64,000 bases of DNA from Eledone cirrhosa (lineage: Eukaryota). Location: contig OZ024748.1 of the NCBI GenBank assembly GCA_964016885.1, positions 10,788,001-10,852,000 on the forward strand, given 5' to 3'. Shown piece after piece: positions 4,232 to 49,975 of this stretch (position 1 is its first letter; each line of letters begins with the position of its first letter). The notes below the pieces were generated by a model. The model was not told the origin of the DNA, ran no database searches, and worked only from the letters and a program-made list of their open reading frames with translations. The translations under genes were made by a program, and so were the position numbers.

Positions 4232-5552
4232 CGAGGAGGGATCAAAAAGTTCGCGGAATTTTTCAGAAAATATTCTATTTTTCAAAAAGTATGATTTATC
4301 TTCAATTTATTTTTCTACATAGTTGCCATCCAGGTCAATATACTTCACAAGGCGATGCTTCCAGCTTCGTAAGCTGTCTCTAAAGAAAGTTGACAGCCTT
4401 GTTCGAAGCCATGTGTTGGCTTTGAAGCCATTTGTTTTAGCTTTTTCAACACCACTAAAACGGGTTCCTTTTAGCATTTCTTTGAGTTTTGGAAAGAGGA
4501 AAAAGTCTGATGGGGCTAAATCTGGACTATAAGGTGGGTGAGGAAGCACTTCCCATCAAAATTATCGAAGAACTTCTTTTGCAACCCGCGCAGAATGCGC
4601 TGGTGCATTGTCATGGTCAAACAAGATCCCACCATGAAGTTTCCCTTTTCGTTTCTTGACTAATGCCTCTTTCAGCTTCCTTAAAACATTTGCATAGTAA
4701 GCTCCTGTCACAGTTCTTTGACCTTCAAGATAATCTATTAGTATCACCACATCTGATTCCCAGAAAATAGTGGCCATCACTTTTTGATCCGACTTTTGAG
4801 ATTTGAACTTGATTGGCCCTGATGATCCACGTGGAAGCCACTGTTTTGACTGTTGTTTGGATTCAGGATCATACTGGTAGATCCAGGTTTCATCTCCGGT
4901 GATGATTCTGGTCAGGAAACGCTCTTCATCAACTTCAATTTTGTTTAATATCGCCAAAGACAGATCACTTCGAAGAATCAGCTGATCAGGGTGCAACGCT
5001 TTTGGGACCTATCGCGCTGAAAGCTTGCTTAGTCCCAAATTATCGTGCAGAATTGAATTTGCCGAACCATATGAAATGTCTAGGGACTTAGCTAACTGAT
5101 TAACTGTTATTCTTCGATCTTCTTCAATTAAAGTCTGAGCAGCCTTAACGTTTTGGTCATTTTTTGATGTTCCTAGTCTTCCACTGCGATGGTCGTCTTC
5201 AAGGTCGTCTCTCCCTTGTTTGAATTGCTGAATCCACTTGTAGACAGCAGTTTTCTTTGGAGCAGTAGTACCGTAAACTTTAACTAAAGCCTCCATAATC
5301 TGTGTCCCTTTCCATTTGAGTTTCACCAGAAACTTGATATTCGATCTTATCTCAAAATAACTATTTTCCATTGTTCCAAAAAGAGGTTTTTTAAAGAGTG
5401 TCAGTACTGTACAATAGTCTGCACATAACTGACTGCCAGTGACTAATAGCAAGGTAAACACCCAGTGACAATGTTCTGACATGTTTAATATTGTTTTAAC
5501 CTATTTTTTTCCTACTACAATAAAATTCCGCAAACTTTTTGATCCCCCCTCG
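4232..5552 (-). mobile_element. Full-length mariner (DD34D) transposon, inactive
   Basis: About 30-bp TIRs (cgaggagggatcaaaaagttcgcggaattt / aaattccgcaaactttttgatcccccctcg); TA at the right end, GA at the left. Confidence 0.95.
4307..5371 (-). pseudogene. Mariner transposase, 355 codons, three in-frame stops
   Basis: HTH region, (W)VPK, TGDETW, HDNAPAH, YSPDLAPSDF; stops at 5009-5011 TAG, 4562-4564 TAA, 4556-4558 TGA; no frameshift. Confidence 0.93.
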
Positions 5553-7493: not shown

Positions 7494-7540
<47 letters not shown>

Positions 7541-7728
7541 TGAGTCAGGACCCCGACAGCTGAGCTCTTGCTGTTTCAACAGACCAGCTGTGGAAACATC
7601 AAGAGCTCAACTGTCGGGATTCTGACTCATTCATATAACCATACTCTACCACCTATAGTATTGAGTACTCTGGTGAGTAATGGTCTAACCAGTTTCTTAC
7701 TGGAACCGTCTTGATATTTATATATGTT

Positions 7729-7762
<34 letters not shown>

Positions 7763-7828
7763 TAGAAAGTGAGGTTTTTTTTTTTTTACAACATGAAAAA
7801 TAACCGAGGTGTCCTACACGAGTGGAAG

Positions 7829-8677
7829 TATAAAGAAAAAGGGATGAAATCGAAAATGCAACTGAAGTCTTATTTTTTTAAAAAATATATATATTTATTT
7901 GGTTCCTTTACCGGTTTCGCAGTTCTTCTGCTTTTCAAAAGGTGAGTTGAGATGGAGGGTCTGTGGTTTTTCTCACATCTGGTTGGTCTCTAAATGTTAC
8001 TTGTTTTATATGGAAAAAGTGGCTCGAAAACCAGGTTTTTCGAGAAGTAATTTGATTGGTTTGTCAATAATTATAATAAATTTCGCACCAGTTCGCGTTA
8101 CAATAGTTCTTCAAATAAGAGAGGGGGGGGGGGGGGTTGTCACAGGTTGTTTTTTCATATATGAGTGTTTGAATTTCTTTTTACTTGAAAAAATGAGGCT
8201 CACGAAGGCTTTTTTTTTGGTTGGTTATAAATGAAATTTGGCTGTCACGTGAACAAGTTTTCATTACATTTTTGCGCCCTTATTTGGAAAACTATTCTGT
8301 AGTCTTTATAGTGAATGTTATGACAATGGAGAGATAGTGGTCAAGGGAAAAGGGATTGGGAGAAATGTTCTGGTTCAGTGAATATGGCCAGCTGTCAGAG
8401 TTCAGGTGTCAGAGTTCAGATTTTCTATTGAGACTGAAGATATGTGTTTATTTGTGTGCTTCTCGAAAAACCTGGTTTTCGAGCCACTTTTTCCATATAA
8501 AACAAGTAACATTTAGAGACCAACCAGATGTGAGAAAAACCACAGACCCTCCATCTCAACTCACCTTTTGAAAAGCAGAAGAACTGCGAAACCGGTAAAG
8601 GAACCAAATAAATATATATATTTTTAAAAAAAATAAGACTTCAGTTGCATTTTCGATTTCATCCCTTTTTCTTTATA
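7829..8677. mobile_element. Element with 219-bp inverted arms (7829-8047 / 8459-8677), probably Penelope-like inverted pLTRs
   Basis: Arms are reverse complements (the ORF track gives identical peptides at 7899+ and 8607-); each arm carries a hammerhead-like motif. Confidence 0.6.
8564..8601 (+). ncRNA. Minimal type I hammerhead ribozyme-like motif (U3-A8 variant); second copy at 7905-7942 on the - strand
   Basis: cctt-TTGAAAA-gcag(aagaa)ctgc-GAAAC-cgGTA-aagg. Confidence 0.55.
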
Positions 8678-8815
8678 TATATATATATATACATATATAA
8701 ATATATATGTGTATATATATATATATTATATATATATATATTATATACATATATAAATATATATGTGTATATATATATATATATTATATATATATATTAT
8801 ATACATATATAAATA

Positions 8816-8854
<39 letters not shown>

Positions 8855-9421
8855 CATATATAAATATAAAGGATAAAAAGTGAGTCTTGTTACTCTGGAG
8901 TTTTGCCTGTTTATCACAAGGTCGTCATTCCATGAGAGTATCTTGGTCTGTCTATGAACTTTTCAGTCGACCCTCCCCTCATACACCAATAAGTATACAC
9001 GTGTACCTCTCCTGCTAGAGGTATATCTAATGGGGAGGGGAACGGAATACTTATGATAGATTAATGAGAGAGAAACAGCTGGGTGTCTGTACTAACAAAT
9101 AGTACAAACATATAATACCCGCAACTAATATGCTAGTAGTAGTAGTAGTAGTAGTAGCAGCAGCAGCAGTAGCAGTGGTACAGTATCGGTAGAGCTTTGT
9201 AGCAGAGAGTTATGGCCCTTTACGTTCTAAGTTCAAATCTAGCTGAAGATAGATTTGCCTTTCATTCTTACGGGGTCGACAAAATACAGCACCAGTAATG
9301 CACTGGCATAATTGCTGGCCTTGTGCCAAAAATAGAAACAATTATATATATATATGTGTATATATATGAGGACTGTACGCAATAATTTTCATTATATATA
9401 TATATATATATTCATCATTCT

Positions 9422-9750
9422 TGGCTTAGTGGTTAGAGCATTGGGCTTGCAATCAAAAGGTTGTGAGTTCAATTCTCAGACCGAGTGATGTGTTGTTTCC
9501 TTGAGCAAGACACTTTATTTCACATTGCTCCAGTTTACTCAGCTGTAAAAATGAGATGATAGGGACTGGGGTCCATATCATTCCACTGCAAAGTGGTCGT
9601 GGAGGTGCCACGGCAAAAAAAGTACCCAGCACTCACTGTAAATGAGGTTGGTGTTAGAAAGGGCATCCAGCTGTAGAAATAAAGCCAGAATCAGTTCCCG
9701 TCCCACCCTTGCAAGCAGGGAGAAGCGGATGTAAAATGATGATGATGATT
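9422..9750 (+). mobile_element. tRNA-derived SINE, family A
   Basis: A/B-box head (tggcttagtggttagagc...gagttcaattc), RTE-type 3' tail, (GAT)n end. Confidence 0.85.
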
Positions 9751-10075
9751 CATCATTTTACATCCGTTTTTCCCTGCTTGCAAGGGTGGGACGGGAACTG
9801 ATTCTGGCTTTATTTCTACAGCTGGATGCCCTTTCTAACACCAACCTCATTTACAGTGAGTGCTGGGTGCTCTTTTGTCATGGCACCCCCACGACCACTT
9901 TGCAGTGGAATGATATGGACCCCAGTCCCTATCATCTCATTTTTACAGCTGAGTAAACTGGAGCAATGTGAAATAAAGTGTCTTGCTCAAGAAAACAACA
10001 CATCACCCGGTCTGAGAATTGAACTCAGAACCTTTCGATTGCAAGGCCAATGCTCTAACCACTAAGCTATGTGCC
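9751..10075 (-). mobile_element. tRNA-derived SINE, family A, tail-to-tail with the previous copy
   Basis: Near-exact reverse complement of 9422-9750. Confidence 0.85.
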
Positions 10076-10792
10076 ATATATATATGTCTGTAACTCTAAC
10101 ATTTGCACACTCACATACACACTCTCCATCTATCTCAGTCATGTTGCTACAATTAGAAGTTCACTTTCCAATTACAAGGTCCTATCTAACCCTGCATCAG
10201 TTCCTATATATATCATAGTTATTTCTCACACATTTAATCACCTTGTATGTCATTTGTACATCGTATATGATGAACATTTATGTAATTATATCCTAGAAAT
10301 AAATTAATACATTACCAAAATACCATTCTTATATCTTTAATTACTTCCACATGTCAGTAATCAAAATAAACTATAAGGATTATCTTCCACAAACCATTAA
10401 TTTATAAAAACACAAATTTCCCAGTTTGTATGATTGTTCATATATCCAGTAACCTCGGTATATCTGTCTATCGACAAGGTCCAGGTTTGTAGTAATAGTA
10501 GTAGTAATGCTTGTATTACTGTGGCAACATGTCTCTGGTCGCTTTACTCATAGTGTCACTATTCCTTAACCTTTTGTGTTCACTCTGAGGAGAGATTTAT
10601 CAATTACTCACTCATTGAGTGCTTCATGACAGCCTCTGATAATTTGATTGTTCATCTGCTATTGTGCAGCTGCAACTTCGGTTATCATCATCATCGTTTA
10701 ACGTCCATCTTCCACGCTAGCATGGGTCATTATTATTATTATTATATATATATATATTGCCCTCTTAATAATAATATATATTATTATTAAGA

Positions 10793-19880: not shown

Positions 19881-20326
19881 TTAACCCTACTGATGTCAAA
19901 TTGCTTGAAACGACCCCTCATTCTATGATATTAAAGCTGTTTATTTGAAAGCGTTTATATTCATCTAAAAATCTTCCATCATAACTTTTATGTAAGAACC
20001 TTTGTTAAGTTATTCTCCAAACACAGTAATTTTCTTTTGGGGGGGGGGGGGCGAGTCGATTAAATCAAGCCCAGTACTTAACTGGTACTTTATTTTATTG
20101 ACCCTGGAAGGACAAAAGGCAAAATTAACCTCGGCAGGATTTAAAATCAGAACATAAAGAGCCAGAACAAACGCTGCTATGCATCTGTCTGAGGCCACAA
20201 CAACTCTGCAAATCCACTGCCCTACAATAACAAAGTTAAACACCTCCAAATTCTTGATTATTTTCAACATGGTTTGAAAATAATAGGCAGAGTCTTTTAT
20301 TAGAAATACGATAAGGAAAGGGTTAA
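19881..20326. mobile_element. TTAA-bounded MITE, family D, with a SINE B insert (also about 31136-31393 and 42430-42682)
   Basis: ttaaccc...gggttaa ends; shared internal sequence between copies. Confidence 0.65.
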
Positions 20327-20396
20327 ATATGAAGAAAGTGAAATATTGTTTGAAATGGTCGTAAACTGAAAGAAGGAAAAAGCATGTTTTACTTAC

Positions 20397-20565
20397 AACA
20401 TTAGCTCGGTTGGCTGCATTATATTGCTGTATATTTGGTATTGTAGGGTTGGCTGAGTTATAAGACATTGGTGTGCCAGGCGTAGATACAGCTGTGTTAG
20501 GAAGCTGGTCAAAAGGCGTCTGAACCAAGACAAAGTCAGATTCATCATATCCATAAGCAGTTGTA
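20397..20565 (-). CDS. DMXL2: DMXL exon 34 (TTAYGYDESDFVLVQTP...RANV), last exon identified
   Basis: cag/gtaagt; phase 2 to 0; DF-L-V motif that precedes the terminal WD40 region. Confidence 0.85.
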
Positions 20566-20799
20566 CTGTAATATTAAAAGATTACAATACTCAAGTAATT
20601 GTAAATAATGTTATACATAAGTAGTTGTACTGTAATATCAAAAGTAGCACTGTACCATCAATATACTATACATGAGTAGCTGAGATAGCACCGACAAATT
20701 CAAGTATAATACCACTGGCATACTGAAAGCATTAAGAAACAACCTGTGAAAATTTCTCATAATGTATTGTTATAGACTTTACATATATGTTATATATAC

Positions 20800-23420
20800 T
20801 CATGGTGGATAAGATAATAGACGTAAATAGAGTGAATGACAGAATAATTAAAATAAGACTTGTTCTAAATAGAACTACTGTGACAGTAATATCTGCATAC
20901 GCACCCCAATCCGGACTGCCTGGCGCTATAAAAGACAGATTCTATGAGACACTGATGCTCACTACCTCCCAAATAACCAACAGTGACTATATAATTATTG
21001 CTGGCGACCTAAATGGTCACGTTGGACAACATTGTGACGGCTATGACGGAATCCACGGAGGCTATGGGTTTGGTACTAGAAATGAGGAAGGCTCCAGAAT
21101 CCTGGAATTCTGTGACGCAAATAACCTAACTATCTGTAACACTAACTTAAAAAAACGAGACAATCACTTGATCACCTACAGATCAGGGGAACATACCAGC
21201 CAGGTAGATTATATCCTTACCAGAAGACGTGACAGAGTGTCTGTTGTAAACACTAAATCCCTCCCCCTTGAAGAATGCACCTCCCAACATAGACTGATAA
21301 TTAGCAACCTCATAGTCAGGACGAGACGTACTCGACAACAGAAGAGGACTATCCTCAGGAGAAAAATATGGAAGCTAAATGACCCCACAGCCAGTAATAA
21401 ATTTAAAAGCATATTACTTGATGCTTTCAACAGTAAGGAAGAGCATTTAGAGTCGTACAATATAGAGGAACAGTGGGAATTCCTGAAACCTGCTGATGGC
21501 GGCAAACGAAGTCTGTGGCTGGAGCAGGCCTATAGGCAGGAGGAGAGTAACGTGGTGGTGGAACAGTAAGGTAGAGGAGTCAATTAAGGCCAAAAAGCAG
21601 GCTTGGAAAGTATGGCGGGATGGGGGAAGTAGAGAAGACTATCAAGTGGCCAGGAGGGAAGCTAGGAGACAAGTGTACTTCGCAAGAAGGGAAGCAGAGG
21701 AAAGAAAGTTCAAGCATGTTCTACAAAAGTACCACAGACGCCCTTTTCATTGTACGACAACTACAGGAGAAGTACCTAGCTAAAAGTAAACCCCAATACT
21801 TAGCTTTTGTCGACTTGGAAAAAGCCTTCGACAGAGTCCCCCGTTCCATTATCTGGTGGGCTCTTAGAAAACTAGGTGTTGATGAATGACTTGTGAGAGC
21901 TATACAAGCCATGTATAAAGAAACAGTCAGCAAGGTTAGAATTAACAATGAATATAGTGAAGAGTTAAGCGTAAAAGTTGGTGTTCATCAGGGCTCCGTT
22001 CTTAGCCCCCTACTATTTATTATTGCCCTTCAGGCTATAACAGTGGAGTTCAAGACCGGCTGCCCATGGGAACTCCTATACGCAGATGATCTAACGCTCA
22101 TAGCTGAATCAATGGCCGAACTAAAGAAGAAATTCCAAACAGGGAAGCATGGCCTAGAATCAAAAGGTCTTAAAATTAACCTGTCTAAGACTAAAGTTCT
22201 AGTTTGTAGGAAGGAAAATAGGGCACCGGTCCCATCCGGGAAATGGCCATGCTCAGTGTGTAGGAAAGGAGTAGGTAGAAACTCCATTTTATGTCCCAAA
22301 TGCAAAGTGTGGGTGCATAAAAGATGTAGTGGGATCACAGGTAAGCTAACTAAGAACATAGATTTTATATGTGGCCGGTGCTCTGGTGCAATAAGTAGCA
22401 GCAAGTGCCCACAGAATACTAGCTCATTCCATTGCACAGATGGTTCTATAGAAATAGTGGACACCTTCCGTTACTTGGGTGACAAAATCAGCAGTGGTGG
22501 AGGGTGCTCTGAAAGTACAGTAGCTAGAGTCAGAACTGGAGGGAAAAAGTTCAGAGAGCTTATACCACTATTAGTCGCTAAAGGGTTCTCTCTAAAAATG
22601 AAAGGCAGGCTGTATGATGCCTGCATACGAACAGCAATGTTACATGGCAGTGAGACCTGGGCATTGTGTGCAGAGGATATACGCAGACTGGAGAGGAACG
22701 AAGCTTGCATGCTCCGCTGGATGTGTAATAGTAATATACGTGAACGGCAAAGCATAAACGAACTAAGGGAAAAATTAGAAATAAGAGGGATCAGATGTTG
22801 TTTACTCGAGAGAAGACTACGTTGGTATGGTCACGTGATGCGCATGAAAGACGACAGCTGTATAAAAAAGTGCAGGGCAATAAAAATAGACGGTAGCCAC
22901 GGAGTAGGCAGACCCAGAAAAACCTGGGACGACTTGATAAATTCCGACCTCACACACTTACACCTCTCCAAGACAATGTCACTGGACCGAGATCTTTAGC
23001 GCTACACAGTAATACAGAAGACCCGCCTTACCTAAGTACAAAGTGAAACCTACTACAGTCAGTAGACACCTCTAACAAAATACACCCGCGTCCCACTACC
23101 TCCACCCCATCCACACCACCCCTTTCAATGTAAAGTTATGTTGGTACCACAACATCCAGTCCAAAACAAATGAGGTCGTGTAGGTGTCACGACAAAAAAA
23201 CACACAGTCCACGCTGTAATGTGGCCGTGTAGGTAACACGGTAAAAACCACACTGCAAACGTGGTTGGTGTTAGGAAGGGCATCCAGCTGTAGAAAACCC
23301 GCCAGACAGTCCTATGCGAGCAAGACAACCACTCTTGCCTCAAGTGGGAAAACTTCCGTCCAAACCCATGCAAGTGTGGAAGATGGACGTTAAACGATGA
23401 TGATGATGATGATGATGATG
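20800..23420 (+). mobile_element. RTE-clade LINE, 5'-truncated and internally deleted, antisense within a DMXL intron
   Basis: APE endonuclease (SAYAPQ, GDLNGHVG, SQVDYIL, SQHRL); RT (DLEKAFDRV, QGSVLSPLLF, YADDL, FRYLG); GRPRKTW; frameshifts and stops; (GAT)n tail. Confidence 0.93.
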
Positions 23421-37782: not shown

Positions 37783-37800
37783 CCAGATTTTTGTGCTCAC

Positions 37801-38395
37801 CTAGTAAATCCTTCCAGACCCATCTCTGTTCTTTGGTTTTGGTTAATCATGGAATGGTCAATATCACACAAGCACTGGTATATAGAAGAAGACAAGGCAA
37901 CGCTGAGATTGCGCATCATCCATACAACGTTAGTTTGGCAATTGAGGCTTGGCGGCATGGAAAACTCGACAATTGAGTGAAGCAAATCCTGAGTGAGGTT
38001 TTGCAAATATTGGATTGGATCAGCAATGACCGTTTTTGATCTGGCAATACTGGCAGAAAGCAGAGGTAGTGTTGTTGGGAATGGTAACGGTGAGAGCAGC
38101 TGTTGCTGGGTTCGTTCTTGTTGAAGTTCTTGTAGTAGTAGAAGTAACTCCATCTGAACTGATGCTAAACCACCGGTTCCGGAACCTTGTAGAATGCAGT
38201 AGCTAAGAAGGGTACGCAACAGTTGTTGATTCACCTTCAGCCACTGTTTCCGTCGAGCGGCTCTAGACAGTTTCGCTTCAAAGTTCATCTTTTCTGCGTG
38301 GATGATTTGGTGCAGAGATGGACGAGAGTCTCTCCTAATACTACCATTTGCTTCCTCACCAATGTTGTCAGAGTCCTGACTAATGTCAAGATCAC
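37801..38395 (-). CDS. DMXL2: DMXL exon 24 (GDLDISQ...LLRTLLSYC...GLEGFT)
   Basis: aag/gtgagc; overlaps ORF 37797-38288. Confidence 0.94.
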
Positions 38396-38747
38396 CTTAA
38401 CAATAAAGAAAACAAGATCACACAGAACTAATATTAGTAATAGACTTTATAAGAGAGACTTCAGCTTTCACATGATATAAATTTCAACATAGAATGGTTT
38501 TTTTTTAGTAATCCAGAAAATAGGGTTGCTTTTATTCAAACTGTTCGCTTTGAAATTGTTTTTTTTAGAATACAGAATTACTATATATATTCAAATATAA
38601 GCTGAGGACCAAAAAAATTGATGGTAAAATGGAGGGGGGTGGGGACTTATATTTGAGTATATATGATAATTATTCTTTTAGAATACAGAATTAATTATTC
38701 TTTTAGAATACTGAATTAATCACTATTAGAAAACAGAATTAATTATA

Positions 38748-42098: not shown

Positions 42099-42722
42099 CT
42101 GGAAATAGCATAGTAAGGAAAGAAAACCTGTATATCTGCTTCTGTCTTTTATAATAGTTCTTGGATAACTTTAGCTTACAAGTGACGAACAATACAAACT
42201 TTACATATTTATTGTTTTGTAATAAATTACTGATAATTATTATCATTATAAGAAAAGGAATTAAATATAAAGCATCATTATTATTATTATTTTAAATAAA
42301 GAAACAATAATAATTATTATTAATGTTAACAACCATTATCTTTATATATTGTATTACTAAATCCCTCAATTTTTTTTTTATTATTTAGAATATTATTTGG
42401 AAATCTCTCATTAGAAATATAGTAATGTGAGAATTAAGCCTTCTGATACTAAACCACCTTCAACTGCCCCTGGTTTTATGATATAAGTTGTTTATTTTAA
42501 AGTGTTTATATTTATCTAAAAACCTTCCACCATAATTTTACATAAGAACTTTTGTTATACTCCAAACACCAGCATAATAATGAGAAAGTTACTAAATCAC
42601 TCAACATTCTTGATTATTTTCAAAATGATTTGCAAATTATAGGCAGTGTTTTTCATTAGAAATATTGTAACAAAAGGGTTAAGTGATGGAAAAGGAAGAT
42701 AAAATATGATAATTATCCTTAC

Positions 42723-43860
42723 CATCCATTAAATATTGGGAGTTAGACTTGCCTCCACTATAGCTGCACAACACTCGCAGACATTCAACCTCCTTCTCTA
42801 ACCAGATGTACAGCTGGTAACGCATTTGGCCACCGTCCACTTCAAAGCCAGTTGCTAACGTCCGTAATTCCTCCATCATTACCTTCAGACAGGCAATGAA
42901 CTTGTACTGTTGTGCCATGATATCAATCTCGGCAACTTTCTTATCGTAAGATAAATCCTCGTCCGCTTCTTTCACCGGCACAGAGTTTTTGCGGCTACTG
43001 CCCTTCGTTGCACAATCTGATTCATTGTCTGACCTCTCGGAATTCATATCAAAGTTGAGGTCAAGTTTTTCCTCGATGTTGGTATTGATTGAAGAGATTG
43101 GCACACCCCAGTCAAAATCAACGGATCTCTGGCGTGTTAGGTTCTGCACTGGCTCGCTCCAATCGTAGCTTTCAGTGGTTTCTCTAAACGGGTTTGTCTG
43201 ACTGAGATCCACTGGTGGTGCGGCCGTTTTTAAGGATGATCTGCGGTCAAATATTTCAGATATTTGGTATTGACCTGGGGTTTCAATCTCGATAACTTCA
43301 TCATAGTCTACAAGTGGAGGTAGTTTCGAGAGAACTTCGAGGGCCAGTAGGGGACAACCATTTTTGAAATGTGCATGAGCTGTTGTGAAAAACAGCCGAC
43401 GTTCAACGGGAGTGATGCAATCATCATAGGTGACATTCTTGTCCCGAATACCAATGTGAGAGCTTTGAGAAACGAGAGGCATTTCAGCAGCTTTGGAAAC
43501 TTTATTCTGTCGAATGATGAGTGGGTGGGCTCGGAGATAATTATAGAAGTTAAATACACTCGGACTGGAGAAATATTTTTCTCCATCATCCTGTTCTTCA
43601 AGCATATGTCCTGCTCCAAGCCCAGTTTGAAGGAGAGTTTGCAGGGCTCCATCATGGTCCTTCAGCATCCATAACACAATGCTACGAAGGAACGGATCAG
43701 GGTGGGCTTTGCTAGGGAGGTAATTCTGACCACTTTCGTTACAGCCGAGTATTTTCGTATACAAAATCTTCTTTGCACTTTCTGGTAGGCCATCACTACC
43801 ATCGTATAAGCGGCAAATCACCAATGCCAGCTGGATATCTTTTAAACGATCCAAACATAC
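42723..43860 (-). CDS. DMXL2: DMXL exon 23 (VCLDRLKDIQLA...QLYIWLEKEV...YLMD)
   Basis: aag/gtaagg; within ORF 42679-43887. Confidence 0.96.
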
Positions 43861-44481
43861 CTTTGAAATGAAACAAAAAAAAATCAAAAAAAGAGTAAAC
43901 TTTGTAAAGCATTACATGAAAATATTTCAACGGATATTTTATAATATTCTATTTTCTAGATTTTAAGAAATATTTGTACAGAAATAAAAAAATAAAAAAA
44001 ATAGAGTAAAAATTTCCGGAAATTAATGTTTATAAATTTCGGAGTTGTATTCTTATGACTAAGTGATTTTTTTCTCCAGTTTTCTCACCAGTCTACCAAT
44101 TTGACTGATCTACTACCACCCTAGCTCTAATATTGATTAGATCAACCCAGTATTTTACTGGTACTTTATTGTATCGACTCCCGAAAAATGACAAGCTTAA
44201 TACTGAATACGAACTATCTCTATTCCTAAGAAAAAGATAAAACAAAACAAAAATGAACACAAGGGAAATAACTCTAGATCTTATCGTATGATATACTACC
44301 ACAAGGGAGATAAATACTGAACACAAATATAAGCTGACGACATGGCTAAATTATGTTCGATTTGACCAAATTATTGGAATTGTTTGTTATTGGCGATGAT
44401 GATGATGATGAAAAGAAGACAGAAGAATGAAAGAAGAAGACTGTGTAGAAAAAGAGCCGTAAAAAACTCAGCATTACTGAC

Positions 44482-44647
44482 CTCAACTGCATCAGACAGA
44501 GAGTTTCCAAGGAGGAAGAAAGCAGCTGCATGAAGGAATCGCTGACGACCAAGGAGAGCAAATGCATTTTTCAAAGCAGCTTTCCGCCAGCGTTCCTCGT
44601 TGAAGTTGTTGCGGAAGAAGTCGCTCATCTTTTTTTCATCTACTGAT
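44482..44647 (-). CDS. DMXL2: DMXL exon 22 (SVDEKKMSDFF...WRKAALKNAFALLGRQRF...DAVE)
   Basis: cag/gtcagt; Rav1 hallmark motif. Confidence 0.95.
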
Positions 44648-44756
44648 CTGTAACAGCAAAAGCAACGACGTTAATGAAGGCACCACAGGTTTTAAGAATG
44701 TGCTACTGGCAAGAAGCATCATTGAGAATATTACTAGAGAGAGAGAGAGTCATCAC

Positions 44757-44854
44757 CTGAATAAACCCCACAAAATGGCCTTTTTCTTCATTGCAAGGTA
44801 AAATATGGCAGCATCCATTGGTTCCTTGTTGGCTTGGAATGCAGCTTTGGCGAC
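44757..44854 (-). CDS. DMXL2: DMXL exon 21 (VAKAAFQANKEPMDAAIFYLAMKKKAILWGLFR)
   Basis: tag/gtgatg. Confidence 0.93.
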
Positions 44855-45312
44855 CTAACATTGGAGAAAATGGAATTATAAAAAGGAATATACATATAAA
44901 TGAAACTGAGACAATAGATTAATCTAAAAAATTGAAAAAAAAAAAATGTAGTTTTAAAAATGAGGGTTCATAACTCCTGATGGAGTTGTAGGAGTGCCAT
45001 CCTGAGATATGGTGTGTCTTGGTCATTTTAAACGTAACAGAGCCCATCCCTCTTTTAGGATGGAACTTATATAGTTGAAGAGAAAAATTGAGAAAGAAAT
45101 GGAGAAAAACCAGCCCCAGTACTGGACTGGTAATTTATCGATCTCAAAAGAATGAAAGGCAAAGTCTTAAATATACAGTGTCAAAACCCTCCATCAGTGC
45201 TGTTAAAAATATTCTTTCTTGAGCTGCGCCATATTCACAAACAAGCCCTAACCTAGGAGCTAAATAACAACAGAGATTAATATTACTTTGTAGAAGAAGA
45301 CGCCTGTCTTAC

Positions 45313-45432
45313 CTTCTCAATGGTCTTTCGAAGCTGGTTGATGTTTATGATCCACCAACCAGCTCCATACTGTTTCAGGTCACTCCATGCAGGTTCACCT
45401 TTCTTCATGCTCGGAATACAGGAAAGCAGCTC
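45313..45432 (-). CDS. DMXL2: DMXL exon 20 (ELLSCIPSMKKGEPAWSDLKQYGAGWWIININQLRKTIEK)
   Basis: cag/gtaaga; 40 codons. Confidence 0.93.
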
Positions 45433-45956
45433 CTGAAACACAACAGATATGTCATAAATTAATGTCTGTCTTCTCTACTAGCAAGAGTTGGATGGGTCAT
45501 CATATACTGAGTTTGTACTTAATCAGAGCAACTGGCCTCTCAGAAAAGGCAGTGTGCCACATCTCATATACGTTTTTTACCACTCTACATACACATTCTC
45601 AAAATATAGTACTGTAGTAATGTGCCATCACGTTGGTTGCATTCTCAAAATAAAACGTTTTATTATATATTTTGCATTGGAATGAAAACAGAGAATTTAT
45701 TGGAAGATCTGTTTTAGTTGAATTTGATCAAGTAACTCAAGATGTCGTGATCAAGAACACACAAGAGGACTCGAGCAGCAAACTCAAGATATTTTGATCA
45801 GGAACACACAAGAGGATGTGAACAAGAAACTCAATAAAATTTGAACAGGAAGCTCAAGATGTCTTGCTCAGAACCACACATAATAGGACTTGAGTGATAG
45901 AATTCCAAGAAAGACAAGAAATATCTACAACTGGTAGAAGAAGATGCCTGGCTTAC

Positions 45957-46111
45957 TTCTGTGGCTTCAGAATGGAAAGCCCAAACAATGTAATGAGAGC
46001 GCAGTCCTTCTTTCTGTAGCTGTCTTCTCTGATGGGGTGGTAGTGTCCTTGACAGATAAGAATGAAACCGCATGGCCAATAAAAATTTGATTCCACATTC
46101 ATCCATAGATT
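45957..46111 (-). CDS. DMXL2: DMXL exon 19 (ESMDECGIKFLLAMR...WAFHSEATE)
   Basis: cag/gtaagc. Confidence 0.93.
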
Positions 46112-46512
46112 CTGGAAAATAAGTTTAAAAATTTATCAAAATTAGCAGGGAAAGAACCTCATAAAATATACAAGGGAACATTAATCCTTTTGATAGCATA
46201 TTTCTAATGACATATATTGTATTTCAATTAATCAATTAATGAAAATTTGGAGGGATTAACTAGAATTATTATTTCATTATTAAGATGGTATATAACAAAA
46301 GGTATATATATATATAATTATGACTACCAAGTATCAACCAGATACTCAAGGCAGGCATCGTTGGTTTTGACAGTTTTCAATAACTTTTTTTTTCTATTGT
46401 TCTGTCTTCACATTCATTTAAATTATTATTATTATTATTATTGTTGTTGTTAGATAATGTCTATGTTGGAAGTGGGTGGGACTAGAGATAAGATTGTAAA
46501 GGTATACTTTAC

Positions 46513-46554
46513 CTGTATTTGTTGGAGTTATATCATCATCTGTGCGTTGGTTAT
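46513..46554 (-). CDS. DMXL2: DMXL 42-nt exon 18 (DNQRTDDDITPTNT), possibly alternative
   Basis: cag/gtaaag; symmetric phase 1-1; open frame. Confidence 0.65.
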
Positions 46555-46941
46555 CTGTAGATTATATATAACAATATAGTATACTTTATATGATGAAATA
46601 TAGACAAATGATAAATACATGACAATTAATATACATACAGATGAAAATGTATGTGTATATATATATATATATCACACTATATTATACTTTAAATGTTATA
46701 TATATATATATATATATATGACAACTACATACTATACTTATTTGTGTACAATATGCACTCGTGTATAATGTGCATCTATAATTATGGACAAGTCTAAAAA
46801 CAAACAAGCCTAAACACAAACATGTATAAACACTAACAAACCCTAAACACTAACAAGTCTAAATACTAACAAGTCTAAACACTAACAACACTAAACATTG
46901 ACAAGTATACAAATAATAAGAGGTGAATTAACGAGATATAC

Positions 46942-48573
46942 CTGATGACTGTGCATTGTAAGTGCTGGTATCTGTACTGGTAGTTGATATGGTATCAGCC
47001 AGAGCTAGGAGGTACATTTGGTCAAGGTTAGTGAGCCCTGGTAGAAGCATGTGGGTGAGATGTTTGCCGAGAGATTGACACTGTGTGGTGCCAAAAACGT
47101 TGAGCATCTGATGGGGTGTTGGTGCAGACATAGACAGGAAACGACCCCTGTTACTGTTTGACCTTTGTCTAGAGGTCATGCCGTCGTCAGATGTGTTAGA
47201 GAAAACATCAGTGTCGGAATCAGAGTCATCCAGAGTGTTTTCGAAAAGGTCTGTGTAATCTTGGGAAGATGGTTTACCTGTGCCAGCCCCACCACCAACA
47301 ATGTCCGCATCGATGGCAGAATCGTTATCGGCAGCGAGAAGGGCGTAAATCGGTAACGGTGGGATTGAGGTGATTTCAATGTAGTCTAGAGTTGTTTCTT
47401 CACAAATACCAGCAGGTTCGTTCGGTGTGCTGGCTCCGATAGATTTTGTCCTTTGACGATGCAGAGAATGCATCTTGCTCTCTGACGCGTCCATTTCGTC
47501 GCTGTACGTCGTTTGGTAGACTTCACTGACAGCGATGCACCGCACCAGGTGAGAGAGGATCGCACGAACCCTCTTGATGCGGCCAAAATTTAAGAGTTCA
47601 ATCAACTGTTTTGGATGGTACTGAGCCAGGACAGGGTTGGCCTGGCGTGCAGCTTCAAATAAACCGAGATCAGTGATCAGAGTTAAACTAGCAGTACTTT
47701 CACTCTTAGTCAAACTAGCTCTCTTACTGAGCTCCTTCTTCTTTGGGTGGACAGGGGTAAGCGGAGCACCGGGAAGTTGTTTGAAACTGGATATGGATAA
47801 AGATGACTTGAAATTCTGCATGGACTTGCTAGCAGTGAGCATAGATGAACTAGGGATGGTGGACAAGTTGAAATCGGAGAGACTTCGCTTGTCGCAATCT
47901 GGCTCATCATAATTACCAAAGCTTTGGTTATCAAAGCAAGCAGCAGAACCTCGCCACTGAGAGTAGACATGGACCTCATTATCCATAGCCACCACAAGAA
48001 TACCAGAGCGAACCCAGGACATATGCATGGGTAGTGGGGGTAAGCAATCTGCTGTGCTGAGTTCGATACAACGCAGTTTCATCCAACGAATTTCTTCTTC
48101 ATAGTTGTCCACAACAATGCTTTTAGATTTGTGAATTCTTTTTGCATGGCTTGTTTGCCTTTTTCGGTTGTTTGCCGGTTTGCCCATAGAGATCTGAGCA
48201 ATTTCTTCGGACACCTGGGCGTACATGAGAATCTTTGAGCCGACGCCAACGGTGAGGATGTGAGATCCGTCTTCAGTAGAGACCCAGTCTAGTTGTACTA
48301 AATGTTTTTGTACCAAAATGCCAGTTTTGTTTCCGTACTCAGCGATAGATTTCCGTACACTGTGGATAGTGGAGAGACTGGGGACAGATTTAGTGCGAGA
48401 GATGTTGGCAAAAGAACTGGACGGTGAGAGGTTACTCTCTTCTCCAATGCGAAACACTGGAAGGTTTACATTTTCAGGACTCATTATCAAGTTCAAATCT
48501 ATTTCTGCTTTTGGGTCCGGAATGCTTATGTTGTTTAATTCTATTGTATCTTCGAGGGACCATTCTGACCCAC
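46942..48573 (-). CDS. DMXL2: DMXL exon 17 (GGSEWSLED...LDWVSTEDGSHIL...QSS), start of the Rav1p_C-like region
   Basis: cag/gtatat; within 575-aa ORF 46928-48655. Confidence 0.96.
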
Positions 48574-48802
48574 CTGCAAAAGACAAAATCAAGTTTTGAA
48601 TAAAGGAAAGCACATACAGACACATGCATGTATATACACACACACTGACACACACATATCTAATATATACAGCCCCTTCTCTTCCACCAGTCTTGGAGGC
48701 CCTGCACTGTCACAAATACTTGACCCTTCCATCTCTGAAGTAACAGTGAAAATACACATTTGTTAAAATGGAGTTTAACCCTTTAGCATTTACATTACTC
48801 TT

Positions 48803-49975
48803 ATGGCAAAACTCTCTGCAATAGTTGTGAAGGATTATCTTTTTAACTGGTTGAATTCCTTCATTCTCAGTCGAAGAGAGGTAGTCTCGGTTCTGGGACA
48901 GCATTCCTCACCATATGAGATATCATCTGGTGTACAACAGGGATCTGTTCTTGGACCCCTTTTGTTTGACATAGATGCCAACTTAAAGAATGCCACAGTA
49001 CTGAAATATGCAGATGACATCAAGCTGTACCTTGAGATAAAAAGGACAGATCCTGAACACTATAGATCTTGCCTGCAATCTGACCTGGACACAATGCAAC
49101 AATGGATCACAGACTGGCAACTCAAGCTAGCTGTGGACAAGTGCACTACCATGCATTTTGGGAGTAAAAACCCAGCGTCCACATACTCCCTCCACAACAC
49201 TAATATCAAGAAGTCTTCTTGTGAACGTGACCTGGGCATTACGGTCAGCAGCAATTTGCGTTGGACGAAGCACGTCTCTAAAATTGTCAAGAAAGCCAAG
49301 GGTGTCTTAGCATCACTCAGCAAGACCTTTGTCAGCCGTTCTGCAGCTATCTATTTAAAGCTGTACATAGCTATGGTGTGGCCACACTTAGAATTTGCAT
49401 CACCTGTCTGGAACCCCTATCTTGCTCAGAACATTGATCGCCTGGAAACTGTTCAGAGACGTGCAACCAGGCGAATACCCTCCATCAGGCATCTACCATA
49501 CTCTGAATGCCTTGCTTCCCTGGGCATGGATACATTGAAGCTCCGACGTCTGGCAACTGACTTGGTAAACACCCACAAAATTATTAACCATCTTGCCAAC
49601 AACAACCCTGAGTACCTTTTTGATTTCCATGTGTCTAACACATGGGGGCATGCCCACAAAGTCAGAAAACAGCACAGCTCCCATGACTTTCGGAAACATT
49701 TTTTCACGCTCAGAGTTGCTGAAGCATGGAACAAACTACCTGCATCAGTTGTTAGCTGTCGAGACACTGCATCCTTTAAGGCCTCCATGCTTCCTGAGAT
49801 TCGCCAACACTTCACCTAATATTCCCCCTCCATACACATACGCACATGTATATCATGACTCATACACTATTCAATTCCATGACATTTGTATATTATTCTA
49901 TGTACTATACATGCACCTTTGATGAGTTGTAGTGCACCTGAGCACTTTACACAATAATTTCATTATTATTATTAT
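48803..49975 (+). mobile_element. CR1-clade LINE 3' fragment inserted in MITE C
   Basis: GVQQGSVLGPLLF, YADDIKL, ERDLGI, HLEFASPVWNP, VQRRATR; (ATT)n tail. Confidence 0.92.

What the first reader, a model, noticed from the sequence alone, without database searches (positions are those of the whole stretch)
7829..8677. Twin minimal hammerhead ribozymes with a U3-A8 compensatory core inside 219-bp inverted arms
Seen: 8564-8601(+) and 7905-7942(-) read cctt-TTGAAAA-gcag(aagaa)ctgc-GAAAC-cgGTA-aagg. This gives stem I, a CUGANGA box changed to UUGAAAA, a 4-bp stem II, GAAA, a palindromic ACCGGT stem III and a GUA cleavage triplet. Established: hammerhead C3-G8 is a tertiary Watson-Crick pair, so U3-A8 is a compensatory swap; minimal hammerheads with palindromic stem III occur in Penelope-like pLTRs and retrozymes and can cleave as dimers. 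Inference: a recent non-autonomous PLE/retrozyme-like element (the arms look identical) with a ribozyme on each strand.
Basis: partly seen in the sequence, partly recalled or inferred. Interest (0 to 1): 0.75.

Follow-up and report, generated by a model that had tools for sequence, protein, structure and literature searches.

The report
Head-to-head Penelope retroelement ends with hammerheads
This is one of thousands of shortened, head-to-head copies of an active jumping gene of a known kind; its predicted self-cutting RNA is an already described variant, but the ends of the copies likely record where the element's RNA starts and where copying begins.

Summary
In detail: the 219-bp arms are perfect and each carries a minimal hammerhead motif with U3-A8. 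It is not a separate non-autonomous element or a retrozyme. The insertion spans 7762-8677 and consists of two 5'-truncated 3' ends of an autonomous Penelope-like retrotransposon (RT plus GIY-YIG), joined head to head inside (TA)n. The motif occurs 11,539 times in this genome, and 48 of the first 100 matches are such twins. U3-A8 cores and opposite-strand twins were published in 2014. The twins cannot pair in one transcript.

Extra findings from family statistics:
- Copy 5' ends stop at a wall 29-30 nt below a TATA box (1,704 vs 110 control), likely the RNA start.
- 46 of 47 inverted insertions have one tailed and one tail-less end.
- There is no wall at the ribozyme cut site, so templates are mostly uncut.
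- One copy looks spliced across the ribozyme.
- ORF1 and ORF2 overlap at a conserved -1 slippery site.

Two earlier scan notes describe similar Penelope ends on other DNA. New member of a known kind.

The parts
7762..8461 (-). Long arm: 5'-truncated 3' UTR/pLTR of a Penelope-like element, ending in the tailed ('long') 3' end
   Evidence: 99.4% identical over 633 nt to the 3' end of ORF-bearing copy L049; 97.3% to its upstream pLTR with tail
7762..7828 (-). About 67-nt tail; in full copies it runs straight into ORF1. Ends at a UAUAUA microhomology with the (TA)n target
7905..7942 (-). Minimal type I hammerhead motif, U3-A8 core, predicted cut between 7909 and 7908
7814..7976 (-). Putative 163-nt GT-AG 5'-UTR intron that contains the hammerhead and the short 3'-end site (inferred from one genomic copy)
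   Evidence: L416 joins (C)AGAT to the base after the AG; acceptor AG in 12 of 12 older arms, donor GC in 30 of 34 older arms
7980..8010 (-). TATA box (8010-8004) and inferred RNA start (7981/7980)
8459..8461 (.). Head-to-head junction with a 3-nt microhomology shared by both arms
8459..8677 (+). Short inverted arm: 5'-truncated pLTR ending at the tail-less ('short') 3' end, at a UAUA microhomology with (TA)n
8496..8526 (+). TATA box (8496-8502) and inferred RNA start (8525/8526), where 5' ends of short copies pile up
8564..8601 (+). Minimal type I hammerhead motif, U3-A8 core, palindromic ACCGGU, predicted cut between 8597 and 8598
7716..7761 (.). (TA)n target, left flank
8678..8870 (.). (TA)n-rich target, right flank

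Best explanation
The stretch 7762-8677 is two 5'-truncated copies of the 3' end of an autonomous Penelope-like retrotransposon joined head to head in a TA microsatellite, likely made when the element's enzyme cut both target strands and copied sense RNA from each end, and each arm carries a known U3-A8 hammerhead variant that is predicted to cut only slowly, as a dimer or with protein help. Shown: family identity, copy number, RT and GIY-YIG, the one-tailed/one-tail-less rule, UAUA microhomology at both 3' ends, the 5'-end wall below a TATA box, and no wall at the cut site. Inferred: each nicked strand primes internally at one of two sites 67 nt apart; the two cDNAs anneal by a few bases (3 nt here) and are filled in; most genomic copies are run-off cDNAs primed in the upstream pLTR that stop at the RNA start, whereas this copy reaches past that start and so came from the 3' pLTR of a longer RNA; RT-EN is made by a -1 frameshift from ORF1; the ribozyme's substrate is the full transcript with two direct copies about 4.7 kb apart, not this locus.
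For: Family: 40 of 40 scored matches full length and ~100% identical, 921 candidates. RVT_1 and GIY-YIG in ORF2. About 37 of 141 scored copies have a stop-free 775-aa frame (hand count). CX4CX2C linker. 3' ends: one long plus one short in 15 of 15 top-scoring insertions with both ends read and 31 of 32 pairs from a position-ordered sample of 60 loci (the 32nd shows a damaged tail); this matches the two RT start sites of anole Poseidon (PMC11167929). 5' wall: 55 of 92 arm ends lie 140-154 nt from the short end and 0 of 92 at 155-169; genome-wide 1,704 ends at 8525/8526 vs 110 six bases upstream, mostly subfamily variants; TATAAAA lies 29-30 nt upstream. Ribozyme selection: in related PLE loci the distinct sense-strand motifs are 20 C3-G8, 11 U3-A8, 1 U3-G8, 0 C3-A8; the three differences between older and young subfamily inside the motif all lie in stems, and the young form makes Watson-Crick pairs at all three. 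Active dimer -21.1 kcal/mol, within 1.4 of the best dimer. Slip site U_UUU_UUA in frame in 16 of 17 copies, first Met in the -1 frame only 155 codons in, same heptamer in 5 of 8 relatives at >=35% identity whose junction is held.
Against: No RNA or cleavage data. Within this lineage 3/8 covariation is not shown: 49 of 51 C3 copies keep A8 and the older subfamily is U3-A8 in 35 of 37. The motif is not more conserved than its neighbours (3 of 38 majority differences vs 4 of 34 and 5 of 35 upstream, 4 of 33 in the tail; only the A/T-rich stretch below it is faster, 17 of 76). The best fold pairs U3 with A17 in monomer and dimer. In the older subfamily the TATA box reads CATAAAA, the CCAAT motif is absent and the donor is GC. 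The intron rests on one copy among 35 hits. Nine of the loci with U3-A8 relatives come from one record set, so the covariation counts are not independent events. No clean pseudoknot was seen after the slip site (fold without pseudoknots).
Confidence: 0.8

Rival explanations
1. The identity is as above, but the inversion is made by fold-back self-priming on an antisense template (model of Arkhipova et al. 2013), not by two primings on sense RNA.
For: Head-to-head geometry and near-palindromic junctions are common; the model explains intron retention (PMC3846280).
Against: Both arms stop at the sense-strand start below a TATA box; each outer end is an internal sense-RNA site with its own (TA)n microhomology; in L416 one arm looks spliced and its partner unspliced, which needs two different sense RNAs (one copy).
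Confidence: 0.15
2. The U3-A8 motif no longer cuts: it is a relic, or a structural or splicing signal carried along in the pLTR.
For: U3-A17 mispairing is favoured. At most a twofold excess of 5' ends at the cut site: 22 vs 11, 11 and 7 at the next three bases among the first 100 of 270, and 14 vs about 3-10 per upstream base among the first 100 of 519, both hand counts. The anole hammerhead is not needed for insertion in vitro.
Against: No core base differs between subfamilies and stems improved; 3-8 pairing is kept across relatives; a small excess at the cut site does exist.
Confidence: 0.25
3. One reading: a non-autonomous retrozyme-like element built with one working ribozyme on each strand.
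For: This locus codes for nothing; short palindromic copies of about 370 bp are very numerous.
Against: All of the sequence matches the autonomous element at 97-99%; arm lengths and junctions differ from copy to copy; short copies lack the TATA box; no tandem 170-400-nt units; a read-through RNA would be double-stranded over both motifs.
Confidence: 0.04
4. A MITE or foldback DNA transposon with terminal inverted repeats.
For: Perfect inverted arms in a TA target.
Against: Arms are 3' ends of an RT-encoding element with variable inner ends and unequal outer ends.
Confidence: 0.01

Closest known systems
C-terminal EN+ Penelope-like elements, Neptune/Nematis type (Craig et al. 2021, PMC8557442; passages read, figures not seen)
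   Same: RT followed by GIY-YIG, CX2-5CxxC linker, (TA)n targets, partial tandem plus inverted 5'-truncated copy, tail often at one end only, hammerhead in the pLTR, start and intron in the pLTR; the Fig. 1 legend says ORF1 can be separated by a frameshift
   Different: Tail about 67 nt rather than 30-40; tail rule near-strict here; clade (Neptune vs Nematis) not placed on a tree; the text I saw does not say which clade has the frameshift
Minimal hammerheads of metazoan PLEs, including the U3-A8 variant of Schistosoma Cercyon (Cervera and de la Pena 2014, PMC4209133; parts 1-2 of 4 read)
   Same: Short stem I, palindromic 15.2-16.2 region, G10.1-C11.1, U3-A8 core, pairs on opposite strands 100-700 bp apart, expected dimer activity
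   Different: 4-bp stem II without the extra base after A9; GUA triplet that allows U3-A17 mispairing; copies are near-identical (11,539 exact), unlike the heterogeneous families reported
Poseidon element of Anolis, PAc (Frangieh et al. 2024, PMC11167929; parts 1-2 of 4 read)
   Same: Two adjacent internal RT start sites define the tail; both target strands cut; AT-rich target; uncut RNA is the main template
   Different: PAc is a single ORF and starts at sites not homologous to the target; here both sites share UAUA with (TA)n, the hammerhead lies upstream of ORF1, and there are two ORFs
Penelope of Drosophila virilis (Schostak et al. 2008, PMC2377424; passages)
   Same: Start site and a 5'-UTR intron in the pLTR; inverted terminal repeats of variable size
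   Different: Penelope has a TATA-less internal promoter and a 75-nt intron 46 nt from the start; here a TATA box lies at -30 and the putative intron begins 4-5 nt from the start and holds the whole hammerhead
Non-LTR retrozymes (PMC7229834 listing; bioRxiv 2026.07.22.740005 passages)
   Same: Small non-coding repeats with type I hammerheads, derived from PLEs
   Different: Retrozymes are direct tandem units; this is a head-to-head integration product of the autonomous parent

Membership tests
EN+ Penelope-like element | RT plus C-terminal GIY-YIG in parent copies | tested here: met
EN+ Penelope-like element | pLTR from a partial tandem; inverted 5'-truncated copy | tested here: met
   L049, L036, L038
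EN+ Penelope-like element | [quoted passage not shown] | tested here: met
   15 of 15 and 31 of 32
EN+ Penelope-like element | Hammerhead motif in the pLTR, sense strand | tested here: met
EN+ Penelope-like element | Retained spliceosomal intron in the 5' UTR | tested here: inconclusive
   one spliced-looking copy; donor GC in older subfamily
Neptune/Nematis clades | CX2-5CxxC linker between RT and EN; (TA)n preference | tested here: met
   CX4CX2C at ORF2 residue 639; TA flanks
Neptune clade | RT phylogeny with named reference elements | not testable with these tools
   no named reference sequences among the hits
Minimal type I hammerhead | Core boxes, stems I and II, palindromic stem III, 3-8 pair | tested here: met
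Minimal type I hammerhead | Self-cleavage at NUH | not testable with these tools
   only an indirect, at most twofold excess of ends at the site
Rfam hammerhead families | Covariance-model match | tested here: not met
   no hit at E<=10
Non-LTR retrozyme | Direct tandem short units with hammerheads | tested here: not met
Programmed -1 frameshift | In-frame X_XXY_YYZ heptamer conserved at an ORF overlap | tested here: met
Programmed -1 frameshift | Downstream stimulatory pseudoknot or stem | tested here: inconclusive
   weak hairpins only; fold cannot show pseudoknots

The most novel reading that the evidence does not exclude
The family records the Penelope transposition cycle. One complex primes the two target strands at two fixed UAUA sites on two separate sense RNAs. 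Most copies are run-off cDNAs from the 5' pLTR that end at the cap. The hammerhead sits in a cap-proximal intron, so splicing makes an mRNA that lacks both the ribozyme and one priming site, which would explain why Penelope elements keep their introns.
Probability: 0.35. Interest if true: 0.65.

Novelty: new member of a known kind. Interest (0 to 1): 0.36.

Why it matters
The ribozyme variant and the twin layout are published, so the finding as written is ordinary. Its value is the family: a very young, very large Penelope-like family with dozens of intact RT-EN frames. Its copy ends allow open questions to be tested: sense or antisense template, origin of the tail and of the inversions, role of the hammerhead, and reason for intron retention. 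PMC8557442 and PMC3846280 name these as unresolved.

Tried and rejected
- Rfam scan: no hammerhead hit.
- C3-to-U3 switch inside this lineage: two C3-G8 copies (L111, L112) looked like ancestors, but the subfamily around L111 is U3-A8 in 35 of 37 and 49 of 51 C3 copies keep A8, so I rejected it.
- Wall of 5' ends at the cut site: not found.
- Cap-derived G before the start: not separable from junction microhomology.
- Splice donor at the GUA site: no such junction among 35 hits.
- RNA evidence: no RNA holder listed; no reads were laid.
- Metagenome scan with the single protein and viral scan: nothing.
- ORF1: no Pfam family; Atlas best score 0.82, gag-like, a lead only.
- Lunse et al. 2017 is not held and is known only through a review passage, so whether a U3-A8/GUA motif was assayed there is unknown.
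- Searches found no text that describes a start-site wall or assigns the frameshift to a clade. Arkhipova 2006 and 2017, all figures and all supplements were not seen and may do so.

Full report
Observation. The arms are real: 7829-8047 and 8459-8677, 219 nt, fully complementary. Each carries the stated motif, with U3 and A8, a 4-bp stem II, ACCGGU and GUA. Rfam does not score it as a hammerhead. The monomer folds no better than shuffles and prefers a 5-bp stem I in which U3 pairs with A17. The active monomer costs 1.7 kcal/mol more, and the active dimer is within 1.4 kcal/mol of the best dimer.

What it belongs to. The window lies in a 3.0-Gb genome. The arm has 921 candidates, and all 40 scored are full length and about 100% identical. 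The 30-nt core has 11,539 exact matches against 0 for the control; by hand count, 48 of the first 100 lie in head-to-head pairs within 5 kb. In other copies the sequence continues from the left arm through the 'spacer' into RT and GIY-YIG coding sequence. About 37 of 141 scored copies have a stop-free 775-aa frame. The linker is CX4CX2C, which PMC8557442 gives for Neptune and Nematis. The insertion is therefore a long arm 8461 to 7762 on the minus strand and a short arm 8459 to 8677 on the plus strand, overlapping by 3 nt, in (TA)n. The long arm is 99.4% identical to a full copy.

Prior art. PMC4209133 reports U3-A8 cores in PLE hammerheads (about 1,300 hits in Schistosoma), dual motifs 100-700 bp apart on opposite strands, no monomer activity and low dimer activity (parts 1-2 of 4 read). 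PMC8557442 and PMC3846280 describe inverted truncated copies, one-sided tails, (TA)n bias and 5'-UTR introns (passages). PMC11167929 shows two internal RT start sites and a protein-assisted hammerhead that is not needed for insertion. Two earlier scan notes on other DNA reach similar readings; they are unchecked and not used as support.

Is the ribozyme under selection? Across 93 related loci from other organisms, a descriptor free at positions 3 and 8 found 20 distinct C3-G8, 11 U3-A8, 1 U3-G8 and 0 C3-A8 motifs on the sense strand, 1 on the antisense strand, and 3 unpaired-type hits in fivefold shuffles. Many of these come from one record set, so the counts are not independent events. Within this genome the older subfamily is also U3-A8 (35 of 37). 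Its three differences inside the motif lie in stems, and the young form pairs at all three. Against this, C3 copies keep A8 in 49 of 51, and the motif is no more conserved than the sequence just upstream. I put cleavage competence at about 0.7, inferred. The two motifs here cannot serve each other: they are on opposite strands, and a read-through RNA pairs both completely.

What the copy ends say. (a) Outer ends are of two kinds 67 nt apart, both at UAUA microhomology with the target. Complete inversions have one of each in 15 of 15 top-scoring cases (two further loci had one end unread) and 31 of 32 pairs in a position-ordered sample of 60 loci (the exception shows a damaged tail). (b) Inner ends pile up: 55 of 92 lie 140-154 nt from the short end, none at 155-169, 30 further out and 7 closer. 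The sample requires an intact core, so ends inside the motif are under-counted. Genome-wide, 1,704 copies begin at 8525/8526 against 110 for a like pattern six bases upstream, mostly subfamily variants. A TATAAAA box lies 29-30 nt above this wall. I infer that the wall is the RNA start and that most short copies are run-off cDNAs primed in the upstream pLTR. An RT stop at RNA structure is not excluded, and the older subfamily has CATAAAA. Both arms of the window copy pass the wall, so they derive from the 3' pLTR of longer RNA. (c) There is no wall at the cut site, at most a twofold excess (hand counts of the first 100), so templates are mostly uncut. (d) One of 35 hits joins (C)AGAT at the start directly to the base after a conserved AG, removing a GT-AG segment of 163 nt that holds the hammerhead; its partner arm is unspliced. 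This is one copy, and the older donor is GC, so it is suggestive only.

Coding. ORF1 (about 400 aa, no Pfam family) overlaps ORF2 in the -1 frame at U_UUU_UUA. The heptamer is in frame in 16 of 17 copies; ORF1 is open in 14 of 17 and stops 22 codons later; ORF2 has no Met for 155 codons; the T run is 6 long in 40 of 40 occurrences in partly overlapping loci. Of 8 relatives at 35% identity or more whose junction is held, 5 have the same heptamer, one has another slippery heptamer, one a near match and one none. None of the 120 best homologues is longer than 803 aa, although 1,346 was allowed. The Fig. 1 legend of PMC8557442 already mentions an ORF1 frameshift, so I do not claim it as new.

Mechanism and verdict. 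Likely order, inferred: transcription from an upstream pLTR; frameshift gives RT-EN; both strands of a (TA)n target are cut; one primes at the long site and one at the short site; the cDNAs end early or at the RNA start, anneal by a few bases and are filled in. The hammerhead likely processes only a minority of transcripts. The finding as written is a new member of a known kind. The family statistics make known open questions testable, hence 0.36.

Noticed in passing
L035:3513-6991, L049:2998-6221: Full copies have ORF1 and RT-EN overlapping at a conserved U_UUU_UUA -1 slippery site; the first 240 residues of ORF1 get gag-like Atlas hits at 0.82, a lead only.
   Followed up: yes
L165-L187: Distant PLE relatives (about 29% identity) from one record set mostly have a G_GGU_UUU-type heptamer at the ORF1/RT junction and switch between C3-G8 and U3-A8 hammerheads among families.
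   Followed up: partly
L189-L205; P0012, P0034, P0040, P0046: PLE sequences sit in records labelled as bacterial genomes or symbionts, likely host contamination.
   Followed up: no
L081-L108: A second family in this genome carries a C3-G8 motif with the same ACCGGU palindrome and a GUC triplet, some in head-to-head pairs.
   Followed up: partly
window 7533-7637: Small hairpin repeat (50-nt arms, 90%) next to (TA)n, just left of the element; recurs near other copies and may be a short end-pair of another family.
   Followed up: no
window 9392-10099: Two tRNA-derived SINE-like copies tail to tail, forming a 700-bp palindrome.
   Followed up: no
window 42682-48709 (-), possibly also 37800-38396 and 20013-20573: Exons of a Rav1p_C (DmX/rabconnectin-like, name recalled) gene; whether the element lies in its intron was not established.
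   Followed up: partly
window 4310-5500 (-): Broken mariner-type transposase (Mos1 HTH hit).
   Followed up: no
window 20763-22996 (+), 48779-49816 (+): Fragments of other non-LTR retrotransposons; one RT frame also has a PHD finger.
   Followed up: no
window 8528-8533 (+): An AUG followed at once by UGA lies 2-3 nt after the inferred RNA start and overlaps the putative splice donor; the older subfamily has GC there and lacks this stop.
   Followed up: no
L032: One insertion is a near-perfect 5.2-kb palindrome with two RT-bearing arms.
   Followed up: no
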